The notes under the pieces were generated by a model, which made no database searches, was not told the DNA's origin, and saw only the letters and a list, made by a program, of their open reading frames with translations. A program made the translations under genes and the position numbers. A stretch of 44,119 nt of DNA, from the IMG/VR virus record IMGVR_UViG_3300045988_175650, positions 1 to 44,119 of that record; one strand, 5' to 3'. The first letter of the stretch is position 1. The number at the start of each line of letters is the position of its first letter. Below, one piece after another: positions 7,733 to 31,838 of this stretch. The stretch comes from a virus.

Positions 7733-7760
7733 ATTATAAACAAACTGTTTAATTATGCAA
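7733..7760 (-). promoter_or_regulatory. Early-left (PL-like) sigma70 promoter
   Basis: Minus strand reads TTGCAT (7760-7755), a 16-nt spacer, then TATAAT (7738-7733), about 35 nt upstream of the first early-left ATG. A TACAC-N5-GTGTA palindrome at 7768-7782 shares the TACAC(A) half-site with the cI/cro operators. Confidence 0.6.
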
Positions 7761-7835
7761 GTAAAAATACACGTTATGTGTAGGTATTCTTTCTAATCAT
7801 TGTTTCATATACACATTTTGTTTAATTGCAGGCGC

Positions 7836-7858
7836 AAAAAAACCGCCCGAAGGCGGAG
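7836..7858 (-). terminator. Rho-independent terminator ending the repressor-linked accessory operon
   Basis: Minus strand reads GCTCCGCC-TTCG-GGCGG followed by TTTTTTT. It lies 35 nt after the stop of the 7893-8570 gene. Confidence 0.8.
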
Positions 7859-7892
7859 CAGACACCAAACGCGTTAATGTATCACGCGCTGT

Positions 7893-8570
7893 TTACTTCC
7901 AAAGCCACTGGATAAGGCCTTTCTTCTTCCTCTTCCCTTGCGGTTCGGTGGATTCTCGGGGCGACGCATCCCCTTTCCATCGTATTTCTATGACCTTCCT
8001 GCCCGGTGGCACCTGGTCGCGTGTTCTAAGCCACATCAAGGTAGTGCGATCGCCTGGGAAAAATGGCGGATAGTGGCTGTCGTCAATACTGCCGATGTTG
8101 GCGTAGTAGGTCTGTTCGCCGTGGTCGCCCGCATCTGAAAATATGACAATCCCGTTTGGATTGCGGGAAATGGCGGCTTTAATTTCCCTGTTGCGTCTTT
8201 GCGCGCTGCACAAAAAACAGACATAGTGCAGCAGGATTTCCGCACGGTGACGTGCTTCCGGGATGCTGCGTTTGGTCACCTTGACATCAGCCGCCGCCCA
8301 ATCAAGCATGTATGGCATCTCGGGATAGGTACGGAACAAGGCAATATGCTTGTCCAGATTCGGCCACTGCCAAGCAGTCCGATTAAATATGGGTTCAAGC
8401 TGCTTGTACATCTTGGTAATGCCCTGGTTGAAAATCGGGCGCATATGCTGCTGTATATCACGCAGTTGTGCCTTGTCCATCACCAGTTGCCGCGCAACGA
8501 TTTCCCATGCGGCGTTGTAGTCGGCGACAAATTCTTTTTCATCAGGGTCAAATTCGAGCAAGCCTGTCAT
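7893..8570 (-). CDS. Uncharacterised 225-aa protein, paralogue A of the 29881-30666 product
   Basis: Roughly half of the aligned residues match the second copy by eye (FDPD..FVADY..AW.IVA.QL.MD; W.W.NLD..IA.FRT.P.MPYML.WAA; RAEIL.HYV.FLC.AQ; YPPFFPGDR; VP.GR). Low-GC gene, last in the cI operon. I recognise no family. Confidence 0.8.
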   Translation of the reverse strand: MTGLLEFDPDEKEFVADYNAAWEIVARQLVMDKAQLRDIQQHMRPIFNQGITKMYKQLEPIFNRTAWQWPNLDKHIALFRTYPEMPYMLDWAAADVKVTKRSIPEARHRAEILLHYVCFLCSAQRRNREIKAAISRNPNGIVIFSDAGDHGEQTYYANIGSIDDSHYPPFFPGDRTTLMWLRTRDQVPPGRKVIEIRWKGDASPRESTEPQGKRKKKGLIQWLWK

Positions 8571-8584
8571 GTTGTTTACTCCTG

Positions 8585-9169
8585 CTAAGGAAACACTTTT
8601 TCGTTCTTGCTTTTAATTCGGTAAGTCAGATATTCCACATGTTTTGCCATTTCCTTCATATTGAAGGCAATCATGGCAAGTTCTGTCTGCGATATTTTTT
8701 TAACATTTTCTGGAGAAGTAATAAATTTCCTCGCGGCATCCAAGTCGCTGCCAGGCGCAACAATAGATAGCATTTCGCGCAAACACGGTCGGACTTTCTC
8801 AGGGTCTGATTCCCAATAGACATCGTAGCTGGTGCGACAATCAGCTATCTCTTTATGTGACGACTCAATGACAGCTTGAGCCTTAAATATATTCATGTCC
8901 CCATCTTTTATATTCTTCCTCGGCACTATTGCTGGCTGTGATGGCTTGCTCCTATCTTCCTCAACCGCAGAATCTAGCTGACGCTGGGAATTATCCTGGA
9001 CACCGTGTTCCCTTGCTAATTGTGCTTCGGTTTTCCCCTGCGCTTCCAAGCACTCCGTGCGCAGTTTGTAAGTTTTCATTTTGGTGCAGTCGGCGTTTTC
9101 GAGGGTAACAATCTCCGCCAAAGCCGCGCCCACTATCAATAATAAAGCTGAACCTAATAATTTACGCAT
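8585..9169 (-). CDS. Secreted/periplasmic protein with signal peptide and four Cys (194 aa from MRKLLG)
   Basis: MRKLLGSALLLIVGAALA is a signal-peptide-like N-terminus. RBS AGGAG before the ATG at 9169. The longer track version would overlap the upstream gene. A sampled line in this gene is 37% G+C. Confidence 0.7.
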   Translation of the reverse strand: MRKLLGSALLLIVGAALAEIVTLENADCTKMKTYKLRTECLEAQGKTEAQLAREHGVQDNSQRQLDSAVEEDRSKPSQPAIVPRKNIKDGDMNIFKAQAVIESSHKEIADCRTSYDVYWESDPEKVRPCLREMLSIVAPGSDLDAARKFITSPENVKKISQTELAMIAFNMKEMAKHVEYLTYRIKSKNEKVFP

Positions 9170-9180
9170 AGCAATCTCCT

Positions 9181-9381
9181 CTATGGGGTTAATAGTGATG
9201 TTTGGAATACATGCGGGATATACCACGCTAATCCTATGGCGCTGAGGATCATAGTAATCCACGCCGCAAGCGTAAGCGGCCAATTTATGACGCTATCCCT
9301 GCCGCATCTCACGCAATCGTGATACCTAGATTGTGTCTTTGCCCCGCAATCCGGGCACCGTGAATAATTAAATATCAACAT
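9181..9381 (-). CDS. Small zinc-ribbon + single-TM membrane protein (66 aa from MLIFNY)
   Basis: CPDC...(11 aa)...CVRC, then the hydrophobic helix WPLTLAAWITMILSAIGLAWYI. RBS GGGAGAAAAT before the ATG at 9381, 18 nt after the repressor stop. Confidence 0.65.
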   Translation of the reverse strand: MLIFNYSRCPDCGAKTQSRYHDCVRCGRDSVINWPLTLAAWITMILSAIGLAWYIPHVFQTSLLTP

Positions 9382-9398
9382 ATTTTCTCCCTGATTGT

Positions 9399-10118
9399 TT
9401 AACCGCCCCGCCACACAACATGGCCGATGATTTGAAAGTCCGGTGCGCCCTCCCCTCCTTGATATTCGATGGGTTCATAGGCGGGATTGCGGCTGATGAT
9501 GCGCACGCCGTCCGGCGTGGCGCGCAACTCTTTGACTAACATGTGGCCGTTATAGGCAATAGCGTACACCTCACCATCTGACAACTCGGTATCCGTGGTG
9601 TCAATGATGATGGTGTCGTGGTTGTAGAGGTAGGGCTCCATGCTGTCGCCCCTGACGTACATCGCGCGCAAGTTCCTCGCTGTAAGACGCCGGGCCTTGA
9701 ACCACCCGTGGCGGAAATAGAGCGGGTCGTCCTCCGGGCGCACTATCCATTCTACCGTTGACCCTTTCCCCTCCGGCCCAGCAGCAAGACGCACGTCATA
9801 GATTTCAATTCGCTGGTGGGTGTCAGTTGGATGCACACCCTTCGGGAGTATCTGCACGGTTTGCTGGGGCGGAATAAAGCTCACGCGACTGTTGTCATTT
9901 TCCGTTGTTGTCATGCCTTGCCCCTCTACCCCTGTAAGGATGTAGTTCGCGTCAACGCCTAATCGAGCGCTTGCCAGCATCGCCCCCTGTTTTGAAATCC
10001 CTCTCGCCGCCCAGTTCGTGATGTTTTGTGGTGTAACGTCCAAAGCAGACGCGAGTTCTGCAGGCTGCATCTTTGTGGTGTCGAAAAGTCGCTGCATGGT
10101 TGGGTGTGTCTTTTTCAT
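9399..10118 (-). CDS. CI/LexA-type prophage repressor: N-terminal HTH + C-terminal S24 peptidase (239 aa from MKKTHP; alternative start at 10097)
   Basis: HTH segment MQPAELASALDVTPQNITNWAARGISKQG. S24 autocleavage domain with GDSMEP (Ser nucleophile) and a downstream Lys (MLVKEL). Divergent from the cro-like gene. The 369-aa track ORF runs across the operator region and antisense through cro, so it is trimmed. Confidence 0.88.
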   Translation of the reverse strand: MKKTHPTMQRLFDTTKMQPAELASALDVTPQNITNWAARGISKQGAMLASARLGVDANYILTGVEGQGMTTTENDNSRVSFIPPQQTVQILPKGVHPTDTHQRIEIYDVRLAAGPEGKGSTVEWIVRPEDDPLYFRHGWFKARRLTARNLRAMYVRGDSMEPYLYNHDTIIIDTTDTELSDGEVYAIAYNGHMLVKELRATPDGVRIISRNPAYEPIEYQGGEGAPDFQIIGHVVWRGG

Positions 10119-10274
10119 CTCGCTGCTCAGGTTAAACAACTTGTTGAAGTTACCGAATATTAAATCAGAAATAGCAAACGTTTTGTTACACAACATGGAT
10201 GAAACATAAATAAACGGATTGTTTTTAGTACACAATATGTTTATTATGTGTGTACTAAACGACCTGAGCATCAC
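10119..10274. promoter_or_regulatory. Immunity-region divergent promoter/operator segment
   Basis: Perfect 11-bp inverted repeat TTTAGTACACA (10224-10234) / TGTGTACTAAA (10249-10259), 14 bp apart. It brackets a candidate PR (TTGTTT 10219-10224, 17-nt spacer, TATTAT 10242-10247). A related half-site TTGTTACACAAC lies at 10183-10194. Confidence 0.7.
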
Positions 10275-10502
10275 ATGAAAGACAGAGAACTGATTGAAAG
10301 GCTGGGAGGGACGGCGGCTGTAGCGGTTTCTTTGGGTACCAGCTACCAGCGCGTCTACAACTGGACGACGCGAGGAATCCCCCCCGCCGTGAAGTTGGAG
10401 CACCCCGAACTGTTCTTGAGCGACGAGCCGCCGGTTCTGCCACGTCGCAAACGCGGCCGCGCCATGAAGCCCACCGAAGAAACACCGGAGCCCACCCCAT
10501 GA
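10275..10502 (+). CDS. Cro-like / YdaS-type small HTH regulator (75 aa from MKDRELI)
   Basis: Divergent from the repressor. MKDRELIERLGGTAAVAVSLGTSYQRVYNWTTRGIP is a typical Cro/YdaS-like HTH. Confidence 0.75.
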   Translation: MKDRELIERLGGTAAVAVSLGTSYQRVYNWTTRGIPPAVKLEHPELFLSDEPPVLPRRKRGRAMKPTEETPEPTP

Positions 10503-10506
10503 ACGC

Positions 10507-10530
10507 AAAAAAACCGCCCTTGCGGGCGGC
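10507..10530 (-). terminator. Rho-independent terminator oriented for the minus strand (downstream of the 10660-10977 gene)
   Basis: CCGCCC (10514-10519), loop ttgc, GGGCGG (10524-10529). On the minus strand it is followed by TTTTTTT. On the plus strand the hairpin is followed by ctatcgaaa, so it should be weak against PR read-through. Confidence 0.65.
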
Positions 10531-10659
10531 TATCGAAACGGGGAGCGGATGGGCCGCTGTCCCGAAAAGGTTAAAGGAGGAATTGAATTATGACTGACGA
10601 ACAAGAGAAATTCAAGCACCTACGCAGTTTTGCAGATGCGGTTCCGCCGCGCGGGCAAA

Positions 10660-10977
10660 TCAACGTATTGCTTGGGATAAGAACACCCCGAGCATCGTCC
10701 AGTTCATCACTAATGCGACGTAATCGCCGCGTATCACTTGGGATTTGAAGATGAAAAAACCTGTATTGACGACGACATTCACGGCAAAGACCGGGAAAAC
10801 CCATGCAGGGGCGGCGACCACGGCGATTACCAGGAGGAACAGAAGTAGTGTGTTGATTATCGTCTCTGCCTGCGCTTCCCTGCTGCTATTTTTGGTGAGC
10901 TGGTGGACGGCACCAGCCAACCCGATCAATGCCAGCACGATGGTGGCGACACCCGATGCGGCGCTTATATCCGGCAT
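10660..10977 (-). CDS. Polytopic small membrane protein (105 aa, 3-4 predicted TM helices), convergent moron inside the early-right operon
   Basis: Near-perfect RBS CAGGAGGTGATTT before the ATG at 10977. Hydrophobic stretches VATIVLALIGLAGAV, LLLFLLVIAVVAAPAWVFPVFAV and YVALVMNWTMLGVFL. Confidence 0.75.
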   Translation of the reverse strand: MPDISAASGVATIVLALIGLAGAVHQLTKNSSREAQAETIINTLLLFLLVIAVVAAPAWVFPVFAVNVVVNTGFFIFKSQVIRGDYVALVMNWTMLGVFLSQAIR

Positions 10978-11653: not shown

Positions 11654-12642
11654 GGCTCACCATTTATTTCAATCAGGCGCGCATGATTGAGTGGGGGTTA
11701 AACCCCAATCATGCTGCGCTGGTATGCGCACTCAATCAGGCGCACACATGGGCGGAAGCATCCGTCATTGACGGCAAGATGTTTTTTTGGGTGAGTCGCA
11801 AGCGGGTCATGGATGAGCTGCCCGGCTTTTTTACCAAGTCGGACACGGTCTATCGCGCCTTCCGTCATCTCGCCGATAAGGGGCTGATTGAGTACATCAA
11901 GCAGGGCGACCGAGACATGATTCATCTGACCGAAAAATTCAAGAAATGGAACGTTGCGCCGCGCTCGGAAATAAATCCGAACCTCGGAAATGAACCCGAA
12001 CCTCGGAACGAAATCCGGAAAAGCTCGGAAATAAAACCGAATTACCTCGGAAATGAATCCGACATATTAGATACAACAGGATTAGATACATCAGGATTAG
12101 ATTTACCCCCTTCGGGGGTTAGCGCGCGCGCGACCGCCGACGACGACCAGCCGAAATTTTCCGACCCGCCACCGGAACCCTCACCCCCTGCCAAGTCGAA
12201 ACGGCAAAGCCGCGAGGAGGCGTTTGTCGCCTTCGTGGTTGAGCGTGGCGTGGACGAGGAGACGGCGCGCTGCTGGTGGCAGTACCGCGATGGCAAGCCG
12301 ATGACCAGCAAGGCGTGGGAGCGGCATTGCGCGCAGGCCGAGGCGGCAGGGATTACCCCGCAGGCAGCGGCGGATTACACCGCCGGGCGGGAATGGCGCG
12401 CGTTTTACGCCGATGGGTACTTGCGCGAGATGGCCGACACCGAGCTGGCGAGACGGCAAAGCGCGCCGATACCGCAAGGCCGCGTGTTTGACCAGCAGGG
12501 CAACCCGCAGGGGATGACATCGGGGATGCCCGCGAGGTTTGGCAATGTGCCACCGATGCCTGCCGGGCGGACGAGCAAGATGAGCCAAGGCTTGGCAGCG
12601 TTGGAGGAAATGAAAGCGAAAATTGACCGGGGGGAGATTTGA
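11650..12642 (+). CDS. Replication initiator, lambda O-like (330 aa) with internal origin iterons
   Basis: N-terminal winged-helix-like region. The coding sequence contains five tandem iterons of about 18 bp followed by an AT-richer repeat block, as in lambda O/ori. It occupies the position after the cro/cII-like genes. Confidence 0.65.
   Translation: MRLTIYFNQARMIEWGLNPNHAALVCALNQAHTWAEASVIDGKMFFWVSRKRVMDELPGFFTKSDTVYRAFRHLADKGLIEYIKQGDRDMIHLTEKFKKWNVAPRSEINPNLGNEPEPRNEIRKSSEIKPNYLGNESDILDTTGLDTSGLDLPPSGVSARATADDDQPKFSDPPPEPSPPAKSKRQSREEAFVAFVVERGVDEETARCWWQYRDGKPMTSKAWERHCAQAEAAGITPQAAADYTAGREWRAFYADGYLREMADTELARRQSAPIPQGRVFDQQGNPQGMTSGMPARFGNVPPMPAGRTSKMSQGLAALEEMKAKIDRGEI
11964..12063 (+). 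repeat. Five tandem ~18-bp iterons (CTCGGAAAT[A/G]AA[T/C/A]CCGAA), putative phage origin
   Basis: Copies at 11964-11981, 11983-12000, 12002-12020, 12024-12041 and 12046-12063, followed by three ATTAGAT(A/T) motifs (two as GGATTAGAT) at 12064-12110. Confidence 0.8.
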
Positions 12643-20748: not shown

Positions 20749-22196
20749 GGACAACGATGTTTTGGGGATTATTCAGCAAGGGTAAGCAACCGCAGGGCAA
20801 GGTGCGCGTCAATCCGGTTAAGGCGGGCGCGCAGTTTGTTGTGCCGACCTACTCGCTCTCGGCGAGTGATGTGGACGAGGTGCTCAAACGCGCCAACCTG
20901 ACCCGTACTGACCTGCTCAAACTGCTCTACGATGACGAGATTTATGGCTGCATCTCCCGCCGTACTGCTGCGGTGATGGGCAATGCTTGGCACATTGAGG
21001 GTGATAACACCGACTGGCTCTACTCGGCGGTGTCTGCCGTGTACGAGGATGCGGTGCGTATCATGATGCAGGCGCTCTGGATCGGTTCCAGCATTGGCGA
21101 GCTCATCTGGCAGGACGGCGAGCAAAAGACTATCCGCGCCGTCGTGCCGCGCGTCATCGAGCAATTCAAGAGCGACGCCGATGGTAATCTGGTTTGGAAA
21201 TCGCCGAACGGTGGCGAGGTTGCGGTCATCCCGGAAAAAGTGCTGCGCGGTGCGGTCAACGTCAACAAAACCAACCCTTACGGCGATGCGTTACTTTCGC
21301 GCGTCTATTGGGCGTGGTTCGCGAAAAATTACGCCGAGCAGTTCTGGAACAAGTTTGCCGAGCGCCATGCCTCACCGATTACCGTTATCAAAAGCGCGGT
21401 CAATACCGCCAACCGGGACGAGGCGCAGCGGGATTTGGCGGCATTGGCAGCGGCCGGTTCGCAGGCGATGGCCGATGGTGTCGTCGCTATGAGTGACCAG
21501 GACAGCATCGAGTTTGTCGAGGCCAACAACGACGGCGCGGCGCATGAAAAATACACCCGCCACCAAATCCAGCGCATCCAGAAGACATTACTGGGGCGGG
21601 TGCTGACCTCCGAACTGGAGACCGGCTCACGCGCGGCGCAGGAGACGGACGACGGTTTTACACAGTCTATCGCCGATGCCGACCTGACCTTTGTTGAGCG
21701 CGGAATCAACCACATCGTCGCTTGCCTGCTCACCGTCAACGGCATGGACGCCGAGGGCGTCTATTTCGTCTATGAGCGGGCGCAGGCGATTGACAAAGGG
21801 CGCTGGGAGCGCGATGTGGCGCTGCTCAATACCGGCAAGGTAGAGCTGACCGAGCAATACTACCTCGACAACTACGGCTTCGAGCCGCAGCATTTCCGGG
21901 TGGTGGCGGCTGCGCCAGCCACGCCAAAGCTCTCCCTCTCGCTCTCACAACTGACGCCGGGGGCGCAAGAGGTGGAGGACGGTATTACCGCCGCGCTCAA
22001 GGACGCCCCGGAAATGCTCGGCGTGGAAGCGGTGCTTGCCGTCGCCCGCGAGGCACACGATGAGGCAGACCTGGTGCGGCGGCTGGCGCTGCTCTACGAC
22101 GACCACGACGACAGCCAGTACACCGACTGGCTGGCGGGCGCGTTGGCGTTGGCAGCGGCGCAGGGCTACGTCCATGCCGACAAGGGGCGCTACTGA
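20745..22196 (+). CDS. Portal protein, Mu gp29-like (DUF935), 483 aa
   Basis: It lies between TerL and the MuF-like gene. The N-terminal LLKLLYDDEIYGCISRRTAAVMGNAWHIEG resembles the DUF935 portal family as I remember it. Confidence 0.7.
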   Translation: MRTTMFWGLFSKGKQPQGKVRVNPVKAGAQFVVPTYSLSASDVDEVLKRANLTRTDLLKLLYDDEIYGCISRRTAAVMGNAWHIEGDNTDWLYSAVSAVYEDAVRIMMQALWIGSSIGELIWQDGEQKTIRAVVPRVIEQFKSDADGNLVWKSPNGGEVAVIPEKVLRGAVNVNKTNPYGDALLSRVYWAWFAKNYAEQFWNKFAERHASPITVIKSAVNTANRDEAQRDLAALAAAGSQAMADGVVAMSDQDSIEFVEANNDGAAHEKYTRHQIQRIQKTLLGRVLTSELETGSRAAQETDDGFTQSIADADLTFVERGINHIVACLLTVNGMDAEGVYFVYERAQAIDKGRWERDVALLNTGKVELTEQYYLDNYGFEPQHFRVVAAAPATPKLSLSLSQLTPGAQEVEDGITAALKDAPEMLGVEAVLAVAREAHDEADLVRRLALLYDDHDDSQYTDWLAGALALAAAQGYVHADKGRY

Positions 22197-23737
22197 TGGC
22201 GCACTATCCCTCTGCTGCTGACTACCTGCGCGCCCGTGGTGTGGAGCCGGCGGCAGACTTTTATGCGCGTTTGGAGCATCTGCGGTACGAGGCGTGGACA
22301 CTCGCCAAAATCAGCGACGTCGAACAAATCGAGCAGGTTAAGCAGAGCCTGGTCAAAGCATTGGCAGAGGGCAAGAGCTTCCGCGAATGGCAACAGGCGC
22401 TGACCCCGGAAATGCTCGCCCTGCCGAAACACTATCAGGAGACGGTATTCCGCACGGCGATGCTGTCATCGTACAACGGCGCCAAATGGACACACTTCCG
22501 CGCGCACGCCGAGCGCCGCCCCATCCTGCGTTACATCGCCATCAACGACCAGCGCACCCGCCCGGCGCATCATGCCCTGCATGGGCTGATGATGCCGGTC
22601 GGTGATGAGCGTTGGGCAAACCTTGCGCCCCCGCTTGGTTTCAACTGCCGCTGTAGCCTGGTCAGCCTCTCCGACAAACAGGCAAAGGCGCTTGGCTACA
22701 ACGGTGCGCCGGAAAAATTGCCGACGTGGGAAGATGGCCACGGCGTCAGCCATACCGCTACGGCTGATAAAGGTTGGAGCAGCCCCGAGCGCCGCGACCT
22801 TACCGAGTATCTGCGCCAAAAAGAAGCGAAGGCTGGATTGGGCAAAGCTGCATATACGGAGCCGTCGCCACCATTCCCGACGCCGGAAAACTGGCGAGAT
22901 GTTGCCAAAATGGGCGAAGAAATATGGGGCAGGCACTCAGACTTATTGGATAGCGTCAATTTTGATTGGCTACAAGATATATTGCCGCACCAGATGGATA
23001 ACGCCCTCCCAGAGAAACGGGATGAGTTTTTGAATGCGCTATTGGCAGTCATGAAGCGCGAAGGTGTAGAGACCGGCGCACAAGCCAAGGCTGAAGGTGA
23101 TGCGGTTAAGAAATTCAATGAAATAATCGGGAGGTATCCTGCTTCATGGGTTAACAAGGCGAATAGTACGGGGACGGTGTATATCCGCAATTTGACCGAC
23201 CGTGGATACCACTTGTTTATAGACGATAGAATGTCTTTAGTGGTGAAAAACAAAAGATGGCTGAATTCTCAAGGGTTGCGTGTATTCTCCAAGTTCGCCG
23301 AACAATTGCAAGCTGGCGACAGTTTGCTTTATTTGAACGAAATGACGGGCAAAGAGGTGGCGTACAACGCGGCCAGAATAAGCGTTCATGAATATGGACA
23401 CCGGCTGCAAAGAACAGTTTCCGGACTGGATGATTATTTCAAACAGTTCTGGCTTGACCGGACTGCGGGGGAAAAAACAAAACCCTTGGCAGATTTCGCA
23501 AAGGATAAAAGCACGTCACATTATTCCCGTACTGAAGTTGGACGTGAGGATAGCTTTGTGGATGGTTATATTGGGCGCAATTATGGAGACGATGACAATC
23601 CACAGCCACGAGAAGTGTTGACGATGACATTCCAGGCGTTGCTTGGTGGGGACGCTCACCTGTTGAAAAAAATGCTGGACAATGACCGTGAAATGATATA
23701 CTTGGGCATAGGATTATTGACGAGGTTCACCCCGTGA
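22196..23737 (+). CDS. MuF-like minor head protein (SPP1 gp7 / Mu gp30 family) fused to a low-GC C-terminal domain with an HExxH motif (513 aa)
   Basis: MuF core: YIAINDQRTRPAHHALHGLMMPVGDERW...PPLGFNCRCSLVS. The C-terminal ~300 aa are AT-richer (sampled line 40% G+C) and contain VHEYGHRLQ (HEYGH at 23387-23401). Confidence 0.8.
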   Translation: MAHYPSAADYLRARGVEPAADFYARLEHLRYEAWTLAKISDVEQIEQVKQSLVKALAEGKSFREWQQALTPEMLALPKHYQETVFRTAMLSSYNGAKWTHFRAHAERRPILRYIAINDQRTRPAHHALHGLMMPVGDERWANLAPPLGFNCRCSLVSLSDKQAKALGYNGAPEKLPTWEDGHGVSHTATADKGWSSPERRDLTEYLRQKEAKAGLGKAAYTEPSPPFPTPENWRDVAKMGEEIWGRHSDLLDSVNFDWLQDILPHQMDNALPEKRDEFLNALLAVMKREGVETGAQAKAEGDAVKKFNEIIGRYPASWVNKANSTGTVYIRNLTDRGYHLFIDDRMSLVVKNKRWLNSQGLRVFSKFAEQLQAGDSLLYLNEMTGKEVAYNAARISVHEYGHRLQRTVSGLDDYFKQFWLDRTAGEKTKPLADFAKDKSTSHYSRTEVGREDSFVDGYIGRNYGDDDNPQPREVLTMTFQALLGGDAHLLKKMLDNDREMIYLGIGLLTRFTP

Positions 23738-30938: not shown

Positions 30939-31838
30939 ATGACGAACACTATTCAAACCGTAGAATTCCACGGACAAACCCTTATCACCATCTCTCACGA
31001 CGGCAAGCACTATGTCGCCATGCGCCCCATTTGCGAGAATATCGGCTTGAACTGGCGCGGACAAAATGAACGCATTGTCCGCCATGAAGTGCTAAATGCA
31101 GTTGCGCGTGTCATGCGCTCAACTGGCAATGATGGCAAAGAATACAGCATGTTGTGCCTGCCGCTGGAATACCTGAACGGATGGCTGTTCGGGGTGGACG
31201 TTACCCGCCTGAAGAACCCGGGAGCGCGCACTGCCCTCATCCGCTACCAGCGCGAATGCTTCAAAGTGCTGTACGACTACTGGCACAACGGCAAGGCAGA
31301 AAACCCCCGCCGCACCACCCCGGATGAACGTGCCGGACTGCGCCAGGCGGTAACGATGCTCACCACCAAACGCGGGCTGATGCACGATGAAGCCTACCGC
31401 CTCATTCACCAGCGTTTCAACGTCTCCCACATTGAAGAAATCCCGGCGGAACAGTTGCCGCAGGCGATTGAGTACATCCACCGTCTGGCGCTGGAAGGTG
31501 AACTCTTGCCGCCACCGGAAGACAAGGATGCCGACTATATCCGCAGTCATCAAGTGGCGGCAATCGGCCTGATGCACGTCGGGCGGCTGCGCTTTGAGGA
31601 GCAGAAAAAAGCACTCTTGCGCCTGCGCGACCTCACGGCACAGGCGCATGAAAGGCTGAAAGCGACGCTTGCCGAAACCCGCGCCACCCTCGACCTGACC
31701 AACGACATTTTGTACGGCAGCGGTGCGATTTGGGACGGACTACATGAATCTCTGTTCCATTTGATGTTGCCCGACGAAGTGATGGACGAAGGCAGAAGCC
31801 GCGCGCAAAAGCACTACAAGCCGCGTATCTTGGCATAA
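30939..31838 (+). CDS. Antirepressor, P22 Ant N-terminal-domain type (299 aa)
   Basis: TVEFHGQTLITISHDGKHYVAMRPICENIGLNWRGQNERI... matches the P22_AR_N pattern. RBS AGGTGA before the ATG at 30939. The 393-aa track version extends through the non-coding leader. Confidence 0.7.
   Translation: MTNTIQTVEFHGQTLITISHDGKHYVAMRPICENIGLNWRGQNERIVRHEVLNAVARVMRSTGNDGKEYSMLCLPLEYLNGWLFGVDVTRLKNPGARTALIRYQRECFKVLYDYWHNGKAENPRRTTPDERAGLRQAVTMLTTKRGLMHDEAYRLIHQRFNVSHIEEIPAEQLPQAIEYIHRLALEGELLPPPEDKDADYIRSHQVAAIGLMHVGRLRFEEQKKALLRLRDLTAQAHERLKATLAETRATLDLTNDILYGSGAIWDGLHESLFHLMLPDEVMDEGRSRAQKHYKPRILA

What the first reader, a model, noticed from the sequence alone, without database searches (positions are those of the whole stretch)
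7893..9414. Repressor-linked low-GC three-gene operon in the rexAB-equivalent slot: candidate undescribed exclusion/defence module
Three tightly packed minus-strand genes lie directly downstream of the S24-type repressor, with an 18-nt gap. There is no intervening terminator, and the set ends at a strong terminator (7836-7858). The genes are a 66-aa zinc-ribbon + TM protein (CPDC..CVRC), a 194-aa secreted protein with a signal peptide and four Cys, and a 225-aa cytoplasmic protein with no motif I recognise. The block is clearly AT-richer than the phage backbone (sampled 60-nt lines 37-47% G+C versus about 72% at 12241), which suggests separate acquisition. In lambda, the genes co-transcribed with cI from PRM (rexAB) are expressed in the lysogen and act against other phages. 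This position, and the duplication of part of the module elsewhere in the same prophage (29428-30666), make it the best candidate for a novel system in the window.
Basis: partly seen in the sequence, partly recalled or inferred. Interest (0 to 1): 0.85.

Follow-up and report, generated by a model that had tools for sequence, protein, structure and literature searches.

The report
Uncharacterised membrane-linked genes beside phage repressor
Three small genes sit directly behind the repressor of an oral-microbiome phage, and two of them form a conserved pair (an exported protein and a membrane-associated protein of an uncharacterised family) that probably protects the lysogen from other phages, although nothing has been tested.

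Summary
Three minus-strand genes (66, 194 and 225 aa) follow the S24 repressor with gaps of 11-17 nt and end at a strong terminator. They lie between two clusters of one 15-bp operator palindrome, which is the position of lambda rexAB.

It is not one three-gene system. The 194+225 pair is adjacent in 23/23 related loci. The 66-aa zinc-ribbon membrane gene is absent or replaced in 4.

The 225-aa protein belongs to a rare family: 13 representative clusters in 1.84 billion proteins. It is catalogued only as phrog_14940, "unknown function". It has no Pfam, NCBIfam or PADLOC match and no significant fold match in the PDB.

Relatives are fused to transmembrane helices (twice with a zinc ribbon), end in basic-aromatic tails, or carry a SAP insert. 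They recur beside exported-protein genes, repressors, antirepressors and Mu-like lysis genes. A 38%-identical paralogue with a SAP insert lies at 29881-30666, beside the antirepressor gene.

Best reading (about 0.4): lysogen-expressed accessory cassettes acting at the inner membrane against superinfecting phage. Function is inferred from position and architecture only. Real, and of moderate interest.

The parts
9399..10130 (-). CI-type repressor with an S24 autopeptidase domain. The start is uncertain: gene callers on identical contigs extend it to 265 aa (about 10196).
   Evidence: Pfam Peptidase_S24 2e-19, Phage_CI_repr 0.0096; phrog_4 'transcriptional repressor' 6.7e-36.
9181..9381 (-). 66-aa protein with an N-terminal zinc ribbon (CPDC..CVRC) and one C-terminal transmembrane segment. 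A facultative cassette.
   Evidence: Sequence and SD. Hydropathy peak at residues 31-59. Only weak zinc-ribbon Pfam matches. Present in 16 related loci and absent in 4. 36%-identical paralogue in L012/L013. Only one database cluster.
8585..9169 (-). 194-aa exported protein: signal peptide (…AALA|E), a Cys-bracketed N-terminal motif (DCTKMKTYKLRTEC), a disordered linker, and a C-terminal helical bundle containing the second Cys pair.
   Evidence: AF2 model pLDDT 67, with 76-87 over residues 90-190. No significant PDB fold match (best E 1.5). Directly upstream of the 225-aa gene in 23/23 loci. pN/pS 0.1-0.17.
7893..8570 (-). 225-aa cytoplasmic protein of the phrog_14940 family. Invariant W67, W69, F79, P86, H115, E152, PP..GDR (168-175). 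C-terminal basic-aromatic tail KRKKKGLIQWLWK.
   Evidence: family. (AF2 pLDDT 76.6, pTM 0.73). (no significant fold match other than its own 89%-identical BFVD relative). (tail). (pN/pS about 0.2).
7833..7861 (-). Intrinsic terminator that closes the repressor-module transcription unit.
   Evidence: 6-bp G+C-rich stem followed by TTTTTTT. Shares a 16-nt identical stretch with the terminator at 10504-10531.
7733..7824 (.). OL-like operator cluster: three copies of the palindrome TAMACA-N3-TGTKTA at 7737, 7768 and 7810. It overlaps a leftward PL-like promoter (TTGCAT 7760-7755, 16 nt, TATAAT 7738-7733).
   Evidence: 5 matches in the window, all in the two clusters; 0.04 expected. The promoter was read. 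Its -35 has only 3/6 matches, so the scan did not list it.
10133..10243 (.). OR-like operator cluster: two copies of the same palindrome, lying between the repressor and cro-like genes.
10248..10502 (+). Cro-like gene, divergent from the repressor.
   Evidence: Pfam P22_Cro 5.7e-4 and YdaS_toxin 1.3e-5, both below gathering; position.
29428..29877 (+). 149-aa protein with an N-terminal zinc ribbon (CPYC..CEHC), a Pro/Ala-rich linker and a broad C-terminal hydrophobic region consistent with two transmembrane segments. Upstream partner of the paralogue.
   Evidence: The stop lies 3 nt before the GTG start of the next gene. 79-93% homologues sit upstream of the paralogue in L017, L018 and L043-45. 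No sequence similarity to the 66-aa protein.
29881..30666 (+). 261-aa paralogue of the 225-aa protein. It carries an inserted SAP domain (residues 108-136) and has no C-terminal tail.
   Evidence: 38% identity, E=9e-61. Pfam SAP 3.5e-7, 30.1 bits against a cut-off of 23.9. G+C 0.444. pN/pS 0.11-0.2.
30678..30700 (+). Terminator-like hairpin closing the second cassette.
30936..31838 (+). Antirepressor (P22_AR_N) gene, the constant downstream neighbour of the paralogue.
   Evidence: Pfam P22_AR_N 1e-37. Downstream of the 261-aa gene in 8/8 related loci.

Best explanation
The block is the accessory (moron) part of the immunity-region transcription unit of a lambdoid temperate phage from the human oral microbiome. 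It is read from the repressor's maintenance promoter and stops at its own terminator just before PL.

It holds two separable cassettes:
1. A 66-aa tail-anchored zinc-ribbon membrane protein.
2. A conserved pair: a 194-aa exported, disulfide-stapled helical protein and a 225-aa cytoplasmic protein of an uncharacterised family (phrog_14940).

I infer that the family domain works at the cytoplasmic face of the inner membrane. In different members it would be held there by fused transmembrane helices, by a basic-aromatic C-terminal tail (as here), or by a co-translated small membrane partner (as in the second copy).

The most likely job is protection of the lysogen against superinfecting phage at the envelope or DNA-entry step. 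The exported protein would act in the periplasm and the 225-aa protein at the inner face. In SAP-bearing members such as the 261-aa paralogue, the protein may contact incoming DNA.

Shown: gene order, operator-bounded position, adjacency statistics, family rarity, domain architectures, purifying selection.
Inferred: co-transcription, membrane localisation, exclusion function.
For: Position:
- The block lies between operator clusters, 17 nt behind the repressor, with a terminator at 7861-7843. This matches lambda cI-rexAB and BTP1 cI-bstA.
- The cI-N interval is a documented hotspot for such genes (PMC8585504).
- Relatives carry other cassettes in the same slot: HATPase-like + DUF4325, MqsR/MqsA, Bro-N.

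Pairing:
- A 194-type gene is directly upstream of the 225-aa gene in 23/23 loci, behind three repressor types.
- In distant lineages an exported-protein gene also abuts the family gene: a 197-aa signal-peptide protein (L014-16), a lipoprotein (L019/L054 and L053), and a DUF4124 secreted protein (L021).

Membrane link:
- N-terminal transmembrane fusions in P0009, P0010, L022, L030 and L051/52.
- A TM-TM-zinc-ribbon-domain fusion in L021/L023, directly behind a Phage_CI_repr repressor (E=1.7e-15).
- The 149-aa zinc-ribbon membrane gene ends 3 nt before the 261-aa gene.
- The tail KRKKKGLIQWLWK has net charge +6 and a hydrophobic moment comparable with the MinD membrane-targeting sequence.

Antirepressor neighbourhood:
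- P22_AR_N, Bro-N, ORF6N or Rha genes adjoin family genes in the window, L026, L028, L030, L051 and L032-35. L056 has a similar divergent neighbour, judged by sequence resemblance only.
- This resembles P22 sieA, which lies next to mnt (that arc and ant adjoin mnt there is from my own knowledge).

Real genes: pN/pS 0.1-0.2.
Against: - There is no expression, localisation or phenotype data.
- No similarity to any known exclusion or defence protein.
- The 225-aa protein has no transmembrane segment, and its tail is only suggestive.
- Nothing physically links the periplasmic 194-aa protein to the cytoplasmic 225-aa protein in loci that lack the zinc-ribbon membrane gene (L002).
- The signal-peptide/Cys-motif N-terminus of the 194-aa protein also heads proteins with other C-terminal domains that have no family gene next to them.
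- In Mu-like phages the family gene sits between Mor and the lysis cassette (L025, L027, L048). That position implies lytic-cycle expression.
- In one case the family gene lies in a chromosomal dnaX-ybaB-recR operon (L057).
- The invariant H, E, D and R residues hint at an enzymatic or ligand-binding site that the model does not explain.
Confidence: 0.4

Rival explanations
1. A Rex-like abortive-infection system. The cytoplasmic family protein senses an infection cue, such as a phage DNA or DNA-protein intermediate (through SAP in some members). It then activates or assembles small membrane proteins (the zinc-ribbon TM proteins or the fused TM helices) that depolarise the membrane and kill the infected cell.
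For: - Same slot as rexAB.
- A cytoplasmic protein plus a membrane protein, as with RexA/RexB. [quoted passage not shown]
- One- or two-helix TM fusions resemble membrane-disrupting effectors of other abortive systems (own knowledge).
Against: - No match to the PADLOC models.
- No significant PDB fold match; the RexA crystal structure published in 2024 should be in that library, though I did not check its entry, and it was not among the hits.
- The membrane gene is dispensable for the 194+225 pair (L002, L009, L010).
- An exported soluble partner has no role in a Rex-type scheme.
Confidence: 0.15
2. A function in the phage's own lytic cycle at the membrane, for example tethering phage DNA or replication to the membrane, or tuning holin/lysis timing. 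On this view the position behind the repressor is incidental.
For: - In Mu-like loci the family gene lies between Mor and the lysis cassette: Amidase_2 endolysin in L027; holin-like multi-TM genes in L048 (and, more distantly, L025).
- SAP insert plus membrane anchors.
- Foldseek gives a run of weak hits to MuF-type head proteins; the best has prob 0.97 and TM 0.44.
Against: - In the window neither copy is in the replication or lysis module.
- The repressor-adjacent copy is oriented and spaced for lysogenic expression.
- The genes are absent from many otherwise syntenic relatives, so they are not essential.
- Profile comparison with the window's own MuF protein is negative.
Confidence: 0.15
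3. Lysogenic-conversion cargo unrelated to phage-phage conflict. The exported 194-aa protein would be a host-fitness or host-interaction factor in the oral niche, and the 225-aa protein its cytoplasmic helper, regulator or immunity partner.
For: - Low G+C and a moron-like cassette.
- An exported protein with a modular N-terminus shared among proteins with different C-terminal domains. This pattern is typical of diversifying secreted effectors.
- Human oral metagenome origin.
Against: - The family gene occurs without any exported partner in many lineages, and with TM fusions.
- It is associated with repressors and antirepressors rather than with secretion or virulence genes.
Confidence: 0.15
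4. Non-functional ORFs, or remnants carried along by recombination in a mosaic hotspot.
For: - Very narrow distribution.
- The 66-aa ORF shows no excess of synonymous change.
Against: - pN/pS is 0.1-0.2 for the 194, 225, 261 and 149-aa genes.
- Motifs are invariant across relatives at 21-29% identity.
- Confident AF2 core.
- Shine-Dalgarno sites and tight spacing.
Confidence: 0.03

Closest known systems
Lambda RexA/RexB (cI-rexA-rexB, immunity-region exclusion system)
   Same: - Lies downstream of and co-oriented with the repressor, inside the operator-bounded immunity region.
- Closed by a terminator before PL.
- Combines a cytoplasmic protein with a membrane protein.
- A DNA-binding module is present in some family members (SAP), as RexA binds DNA.
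   Different: - No sequence or fold similarity to RexA or RexB.
- The membrane component is a 66-aa single-pass zinc-ribbon protein, not a multi-pass one, and it is dispensable.
- There is an additional exported protein.
- A second paralogous copy sits in the late region.
P22 SieA (inner-membrane superinfection exclusion protein next to mnt)
   Same: - The paralogous cassette at 29428-30666 sits in the late operon directly beside the antirepressor gene, as sieA sits beside mnt (PMC10883804; that arc and ant adjoin mnt there is from my own knowledge).
- Distant family members with TM anchors also flank Bro-N/RHH or Rha genes.
- The proposed site of action is the inner membrane.
   Different: - SieA is a 162-164-aa protein with three TM helices and a FxRYPxEAxxFNK motif.
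- The proteins here have a soluble domain of about 200 aa with a WxW…PPFFPGDR signature, and no homology to SieA was seen.
BstA (prophage abortive-infection protein downstream of cI in BTP1)
   Same: Same genomic logic: the gene lies downstream of the prophage repressor and presumably shares its promoter (PMC8585504).
   Different: BstA has a KilA-N-like domain and needs no partner. No KilA-N or other Pfam match was found here.
phrog_14940 (PHROGs family, unknown function)
   Same: All 13 family members tested match it (best E=2.1e-142; the 225-aa protein at 6.1e-7).
   Different: The PHROG carries no annotation. No homologue was found by tblastn in 50,697 GenBank phage records, using six family queries.
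T4 Imm/Sp and Gram-positive Ltp/Sie2009 exclusion proteins
   Same: Envelope-located, phage-encoded proteins that block DNA entry, including an exported component (own knowledge; review PMC11436027 listed).
   Different: No homology was tested or seen. Those systems have no cytoplasmic domain protein comparable to the 225-aa family.

Membership tests
Lambda RexAB | RexA homologue (sequence or fold) | tested here: not met
   No PADLOC hit at E<=1. No PDB sequence hit. Foldseek against the PDB (entries to April 2026) gave no match with E<=0.001; the 2024 RexA structure should be in that library but I did not check its entry.
Lambda RexAB | RexB-type multi-pass membrane protein | tested here: not met
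   The only membrane protein in the block has one hydrophobic segment in 66 aa. No PADLOC hit.
Lambda RexAB | Located downstream of cI inside the immunity region and co-transcribed with it | tested here: met
   Position between operator clusters, a 17-nt gap and a terminator at the end. Co-transcription itself is inferred, not shown.
Lambda RexAB | Excludes superinfecting phage by membrane depolarisation | not testable with these tools
   Needs infection assays.
P22 SieA | About 160-aa inner-membrane protein with three TM helices and the FxRYPxEAxxFNK motif | tested here: not met
   None of the five proteins has this architecture or motif. Features taken from PMC10883804.
P22 SieA | Lies beside the antirepressor (immI-type) genes in the late operon | tested here: met
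   The 261-aa paralogue is followed by a P22_AR_N gene in the window and in 8/8 relatives. This is a positional resemblance only.
BstA | KilA-N-like N-terminal domain | tested here: not met
   No Pfam or PADLOC match.
Phage_Mu_F / MuF head protein domain | Match to PF04233, or profile similarity to a bona fide MuF protein | tested here: not met
   No Pfam hit for any of the 13 members. hhalign against the window's own MuF protein gives probability 0.5%. Only weak Foldseek hits to BFVD MuF proteins (best E=0.045, TM 0.44/0.31).
SAP domain (PF02037) | Score above the Pfam gathering threshold | tested here: met
   Met for the 261-aa paralogue only: 30.1 bits against 23.9, residues 108-136. The 225-aa protein lacks the insert.
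phrog_14940 | Significant match to the PHROG profile | tested here: met
   13/13 members match: 6.1e-7 for the 225-aa protein, best 2.1e-142.
Known defence systems in PADLOC-DB 2.0 (including Kiwa and Zorya) | Any component model hit | tested here: not met
   No hits for the three proteins, the repressor, the paralogue or its partner. L021 and the L009/L010 neighbours gave only chance-level hits with E>=0.004.

The most novel reading that the evidence does not exclude
The phrog_14940 domain is the cytoplasmic effector of a previously unrecognised class of envelope-coupled anti-phage systems. An exported protein or a small membrane protein would report or obstruct phage penetration. The domain is held at the inner face of the membrane and uses an invariant H/E/D-R site, with a SAP DNA-binding insert in some members. 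It would act on incoming DNA at the point of entry. One phage would carry two diverged copies, one beside the repressor and one beside the antirepressor, to cover different targets.
Probability: 0.2. Interest if true: 0.75.

Novelty: new variant of a known kind. Interest (0 to 1): 0.5.

Why it matters
The interval behind prophage repressors has already yielded rexAB and bstA. This window adds a conserved two-gene pair built on a protein family with no annotated function, no significant fold match to a solved structure, and no homologue found in GenBank phage records.

The family's comparative pattern is unusually informative for an unknown. It includes membrane tethering by three different routes, recurrent exported partners, optional SAP inserts, and recurrent placement beside repressors and antirepressors.

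If the pair does exclude phages, it would define a new protein family for prophage-mediated protection in oral and environmental Proteobacteria. It would also give a compact, clonable test object of about 1.3 kb.

If it does not, the Mu-like contexts point to an unrecognised membrane-linked step in phage development.

Tried and rejected
- Pfam, PHROGs, NCBIfam and PADLOC scans of all three proteins, the paralogue and its partner: nothing except phrog_14940, the SAP domain, and sub-threshold zinc-ribbon matches.
- PDB sequence profile search: nothing.
- AF2 model of the 225-aa protein (pLDDT 76.6):
  - Against the PDB: no match with E<=0.001; the top hits were P450s with TM<0.3.
  - Against BFVD: only its own 89%-identical relative, plus a run of weak MuF-type hits.
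  - I followed up the MuF lead by profile comparison with the window's own MuF protein and rejected it.
- AF2 model of the 194-aa protein (pLDDT 67) against the PDB: only generic helical bundles.
- blastn of the region and tblastn with six family members against 50,697 GenBank phage records: no match.
- Homology searches gave 4 clusters for the 225-aa protein, 16 for the 194-aa protein and 1 for the 66-aa protein.
- Host identification: Neisseriaceae DUS and Pasteurellaceae USS motifs are absent, and there are no tRNA genes. The host remains unknown.
- The idea that the zinc-ribbon gene is an obligatory third component was rejected on presence/absence data.
- The idea that the two zinc-ribbon proteins are homologous was rejected.
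- Literature searches for phrog_14940, and for SAP domains in membrane-linked prophage defence, found nothing.
Full report
**1. What is in the sequence**

On the minus strand, the S24-type repressor gene ends at 9399. It matches Pfam Peptidase_S24 at 2e-19 and phrog_4 'transcriptional repressor' at 7e-36. Three genes follow it:
- 9381-9181: 66 aa.
- 9169-8585: 194 aa.
- 8570-7893: 225 aa.

The gaps are 17, 11 and 14 nt, and each gene has a Shine-Dalgarno-like sequence. A G+C-rich hairpin followed by seven T (7861-7843) closes the set.

A 15-bp palindrome, TAMACA-N3-TGTKTA, occurs five times in the 44-kb window. All five copies fall in two clusters, at 7737-7824 and 10133-10243, against 0.04 expected by chance. 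The right cluster lies between the repressor and a divergent cro-like gene. The left cluster overlaps a leftward TTGCAT-16-TATAAT promoter-like site, which I read.

The three genes therefore lie inside an operator-bounded immunity region. The order is OR-repressor-cargo-terminator-OL/PL, which is the arrangement of lambda cI-rexA-rexB. Co-transcription with the repressor follows from spacing and the lack of a convincing internal terminator. It has not been shown.

G+C is 0.47, 0.44 and 0.52 for the three genes against 0.59 for the window. The block is one of only three low-GC patches. The others are the paralogue at about 29.7-31.1 kb and the 3' part of a MuF gene.

The window appears to be a whole temperate phage genome. 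The 225-aa protein is encoded with exactly this sequence on 12 contigs from five metagenome samples, one of them labelled a human oral metagenome, and in that contig integrase and tail-fibre genes are adjacent. The host was not identified.

**2. The three proteins**

- *66 aa.* It has CPDC..CVRC followed by one hydrophobic segment. Gene callers miss it on identical contigs. The 5.8-billion-protein collection holds a single cluster of it.
- *194 aa.* It has a signal-peptide-like N-terminus ending ALA|E and four invariant Cys. The AF2 model (pLDDT 67) shows a small Cys-bracketed N-terminal helical element, a disordered linker (residues 56-88) and a well-predicted C-terminal helical bundle. It has no meaningful PDB neighbour.
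- *225 aa.* It has no hydrophobic segment. It ends in KRKKKGLIQWLWK, a polybasic-aromatic tail whose charge and hydrophobic moment resemble known membrane-targeting sequences (crude calculation; inference). Its AF2 model is reasonably confident (pLDDT 76.6, pTM 0.73). It matches nothing in the PDB. In BFVD it matches only its own 89%-identical relative, plus weak MuF-type hits. A profile comparison with the window's own MuF protein did not confirm those hits.

None of the three matches PADLOC, Pfam (above threshold) or NCBIfam.

Nei-Gojobori comparisons with orthologues give pN/pS of about 0.2 for the 225-aa gene and 0.1-0.17 for the 194-aa gene, so these are real genes. The 66-aa gene has too few changes to judge. 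A 36%-identical paralogue that keeps both Cys pairs and the membrane segment exists in L012/L013.

**3. It is not one three-gene system**

I examined 24 related loci that carry a close orthologue of the 225-aa gene.
- A 194-type gene lies directly upstream in all 23 loci where the sequence is available.
- This holds behind three different repressors: the window type, a 68-70% variant, and an HTH_3-type repressor in L002.
- The 66-aa gene is present in 16 loci and absent in 4. In L002 nothing replaces it. In L009 and L010 the same repressor is followed by an HATPase-like gene plus DUF4325 (STAS-like) genes, and then by 194+225.
- Other relatives carry MqsR/MqsA plus a second zinc-ribbon gene, or a Bro-N gene, in the same interval.

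The interval is thus a cassette hotspot, as described for the cI-N region of lambdoid phages (PMC8585504). The conserved functional unit is the 194+225 pair.

One caveat applies. The signal peptide and first Cys motif of the 194-aa protein also head proteins with unrelated C-terminal domains that have no 225-type neighbour. That N-terminal module is therefore shared by recombination and is not specific to the pair.

**4. The family of the 225-aa protein**

An exhaustive HMMER search of 1.84 billion representative proteins found 13 clusters at E<=0.001. All 13 aligned family members (seven of those clusters among them) match phrog_14940, 'unknown function'. tblastn with six members found nothing in 50,697 GenBank phage records.

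The alignment shows invariant W-x-W, F, P, H, E and PP..GDR (PPFFPGDRT in most members).

Across about 40 further loci from viral, genomic and metagenomic collections, the domain appears in these forms:
- Bare.
- With an inserted SAP or SAP-like segment. This includes the window's paralogue (Pfam SAP above threshold).
- With one or two N-terminal transmembrane helices (P0009, P0010, L022, L030, L051/52).
- As a TM-TM-zinc-ribbon-domain fusion (L021/L023).
- With short hydrophobic N-termini or basic-aromatic C-termini.

This is why I infer that the domain works at the cytoplasmic face of the membrane. It also explains why small zinc-ribbon membrane proteins recur next to it. That link holds at the level of architecture only, since the zinc ribbons are not detectably homologous to each other.

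**5. Neighbourhoods of the family**

Four associations recur.
- *(a) Directly behind a repressor.* The window lineage, and independently L021/L023, where a Phage_CI_repr gene (1.7e-15) is immediately followed by the fusion protein. In L021 a DUF4124 secreted protein comes next.
- *(b) Directly next to an exported-protein gene.* The window; a 197-aa signal-peptide protein in L014-16; lipoproteins in L019/L054 and L053.
- *(c) Next to antirepressor-type genes.* P22_AR_N in the window and L026, ORF6N in L028, Rha in L030, and Bro-N in L051 (there with a divergent RHH gene) and L032-35; L056 has a similar neighbour judged by resemblance only. This is the position P22 sieA occupies next to mnt.
- *(d) In Mu-like phages.* The gene lies between Mor and the lysis genes (L025, L027, L048).

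One member lies between ybaB and recR in a chromosomal operon (L057).

**6. The second copy in the window**

At 29428-29877 a 149-aa protein has a zinc ribbon, a Pro/Ala-rich linker and a broad hydrophobic region consistent with two TM segments. Its gene stops 3 nt before the GTG start of the 261-aa paralogue at 29881-30666. A terminator-like hairpin follows, and then the P22_AR_N antirepressor gene.

In relatives, the upstream partner of the paralogue is either this zinc-ribbon membrane protein (5 loci) or a 197-aa exported protein (3 loci). The antirepressor is downstream in 8/8. The interchange of a membrane partner and an exported partner in front of the same gene is the clearest hint that these partners serve related roles.

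**7. Interpretation**

*Shown:* organisation, position, conservation of the pair, rarity and lack of annotation of the family, diversity of membrane-tethering architectures, purifying selection.

*Inferred:* lysogenic expression, membrane localisation, function.

The best-supported reading (about 0.4) is lysogen-expressed protection acting at the envelope or inner membrane against superinfecting phage. It is analogous in logic to SieA, Imm/Sp or Ltp, with possible action on incoming DNA in SAP-bearing members.

A Rex-type abortive mechanism (0.15) fits the slot and the cytoplasmic-plus-membrane composition. It does not fit the dispensable membrane gene or the exported partner.

The Mu-like contexts keep open a lytic-cycle membrane function (0.15). 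A lysogenic-conversion role unrelated to phages (0.15) cannot be excluded.

The finding is real and the proteins are uncharacterised. However, the 'three-gene system' and the defence function go beyond the evidence. I score interest at 0.5.

Noticed in passing
window 22196-24123: The MuF-domain head protein (Pfam Phage_Mu_F, residues 47-155) has a C-terminal extension of about 310 aa that is low in G+C and has no Pfam match. A 129-aa ORF follows it. The layout resembles MuF-type polymorphic toxin/immunity pairs (own knowledge).
   Followed up: partly
window 10512-10977: A 105-aa multi-TM protein gene (10660-10977, minus strand) lies antisense within the early-right region and has its own strong terminator (10531-10512). 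It may be another independently expressed moron. No Pfam or PADLOC match.
   Followed up: partly
window 7833-7848 and 10504-10519: An identical 16-nt stretch, CGCAAAAAAACCGCCC, occurs in the two minus-strand terminators that bracket the immunity region, 2671 bp apart. These may be recombination joints for immunity-module exchange.
   Followed up: no
L009 1030-2290; L010 1106-3318; L036 1781-3951: In related phages the slot just behind the repressor holds an HATPase-like protein plus one or two DUF4325 (STAS-like) proteins and a small TM protein. This looks like an uncharacterised cassette in its own right. PADLOC gave only chance-level hits.
   Followed up: partly
L012 2816-4070; L013 653-1907: Downstream of the 225-aa gene, some relatives carry a second 66-aa zinc-ribbon membrane paralogue followed by an MqsR/MqsA toxin-antitoxin pair.
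   Followed up: partly
L057 4441-6025: A distant family member lies between ybaB and recR in a dnaX-ybaB-recR operon on a metagenome contig (Ga0193699_10002218). This is a non-phage context next to nucleoid and recombination genes.
   Followed up: partly
P0027, P0029, P0030, P0031; L032 4001-4822; L036 4001-4516: The signal peptide and Cys motif (ENADCTKMKTYKLRTEC) of the 194-aa protein are shared by exported proteins with at least two other C-terminal domains. P0029 carries the motif twice. These genes are usually preceded by a DUF4325 gene. The pattern suggests a modular family of exported phage proteins.
   Followed up: partly
window 30667-30935: About 270 nt of apparently non-coding sequence lies between the terminator of the 261-aa gene and the likely start of the antirepressor gene (ATG at 30936). 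It could hold the antirepressor's control elements.
   Followed up: no
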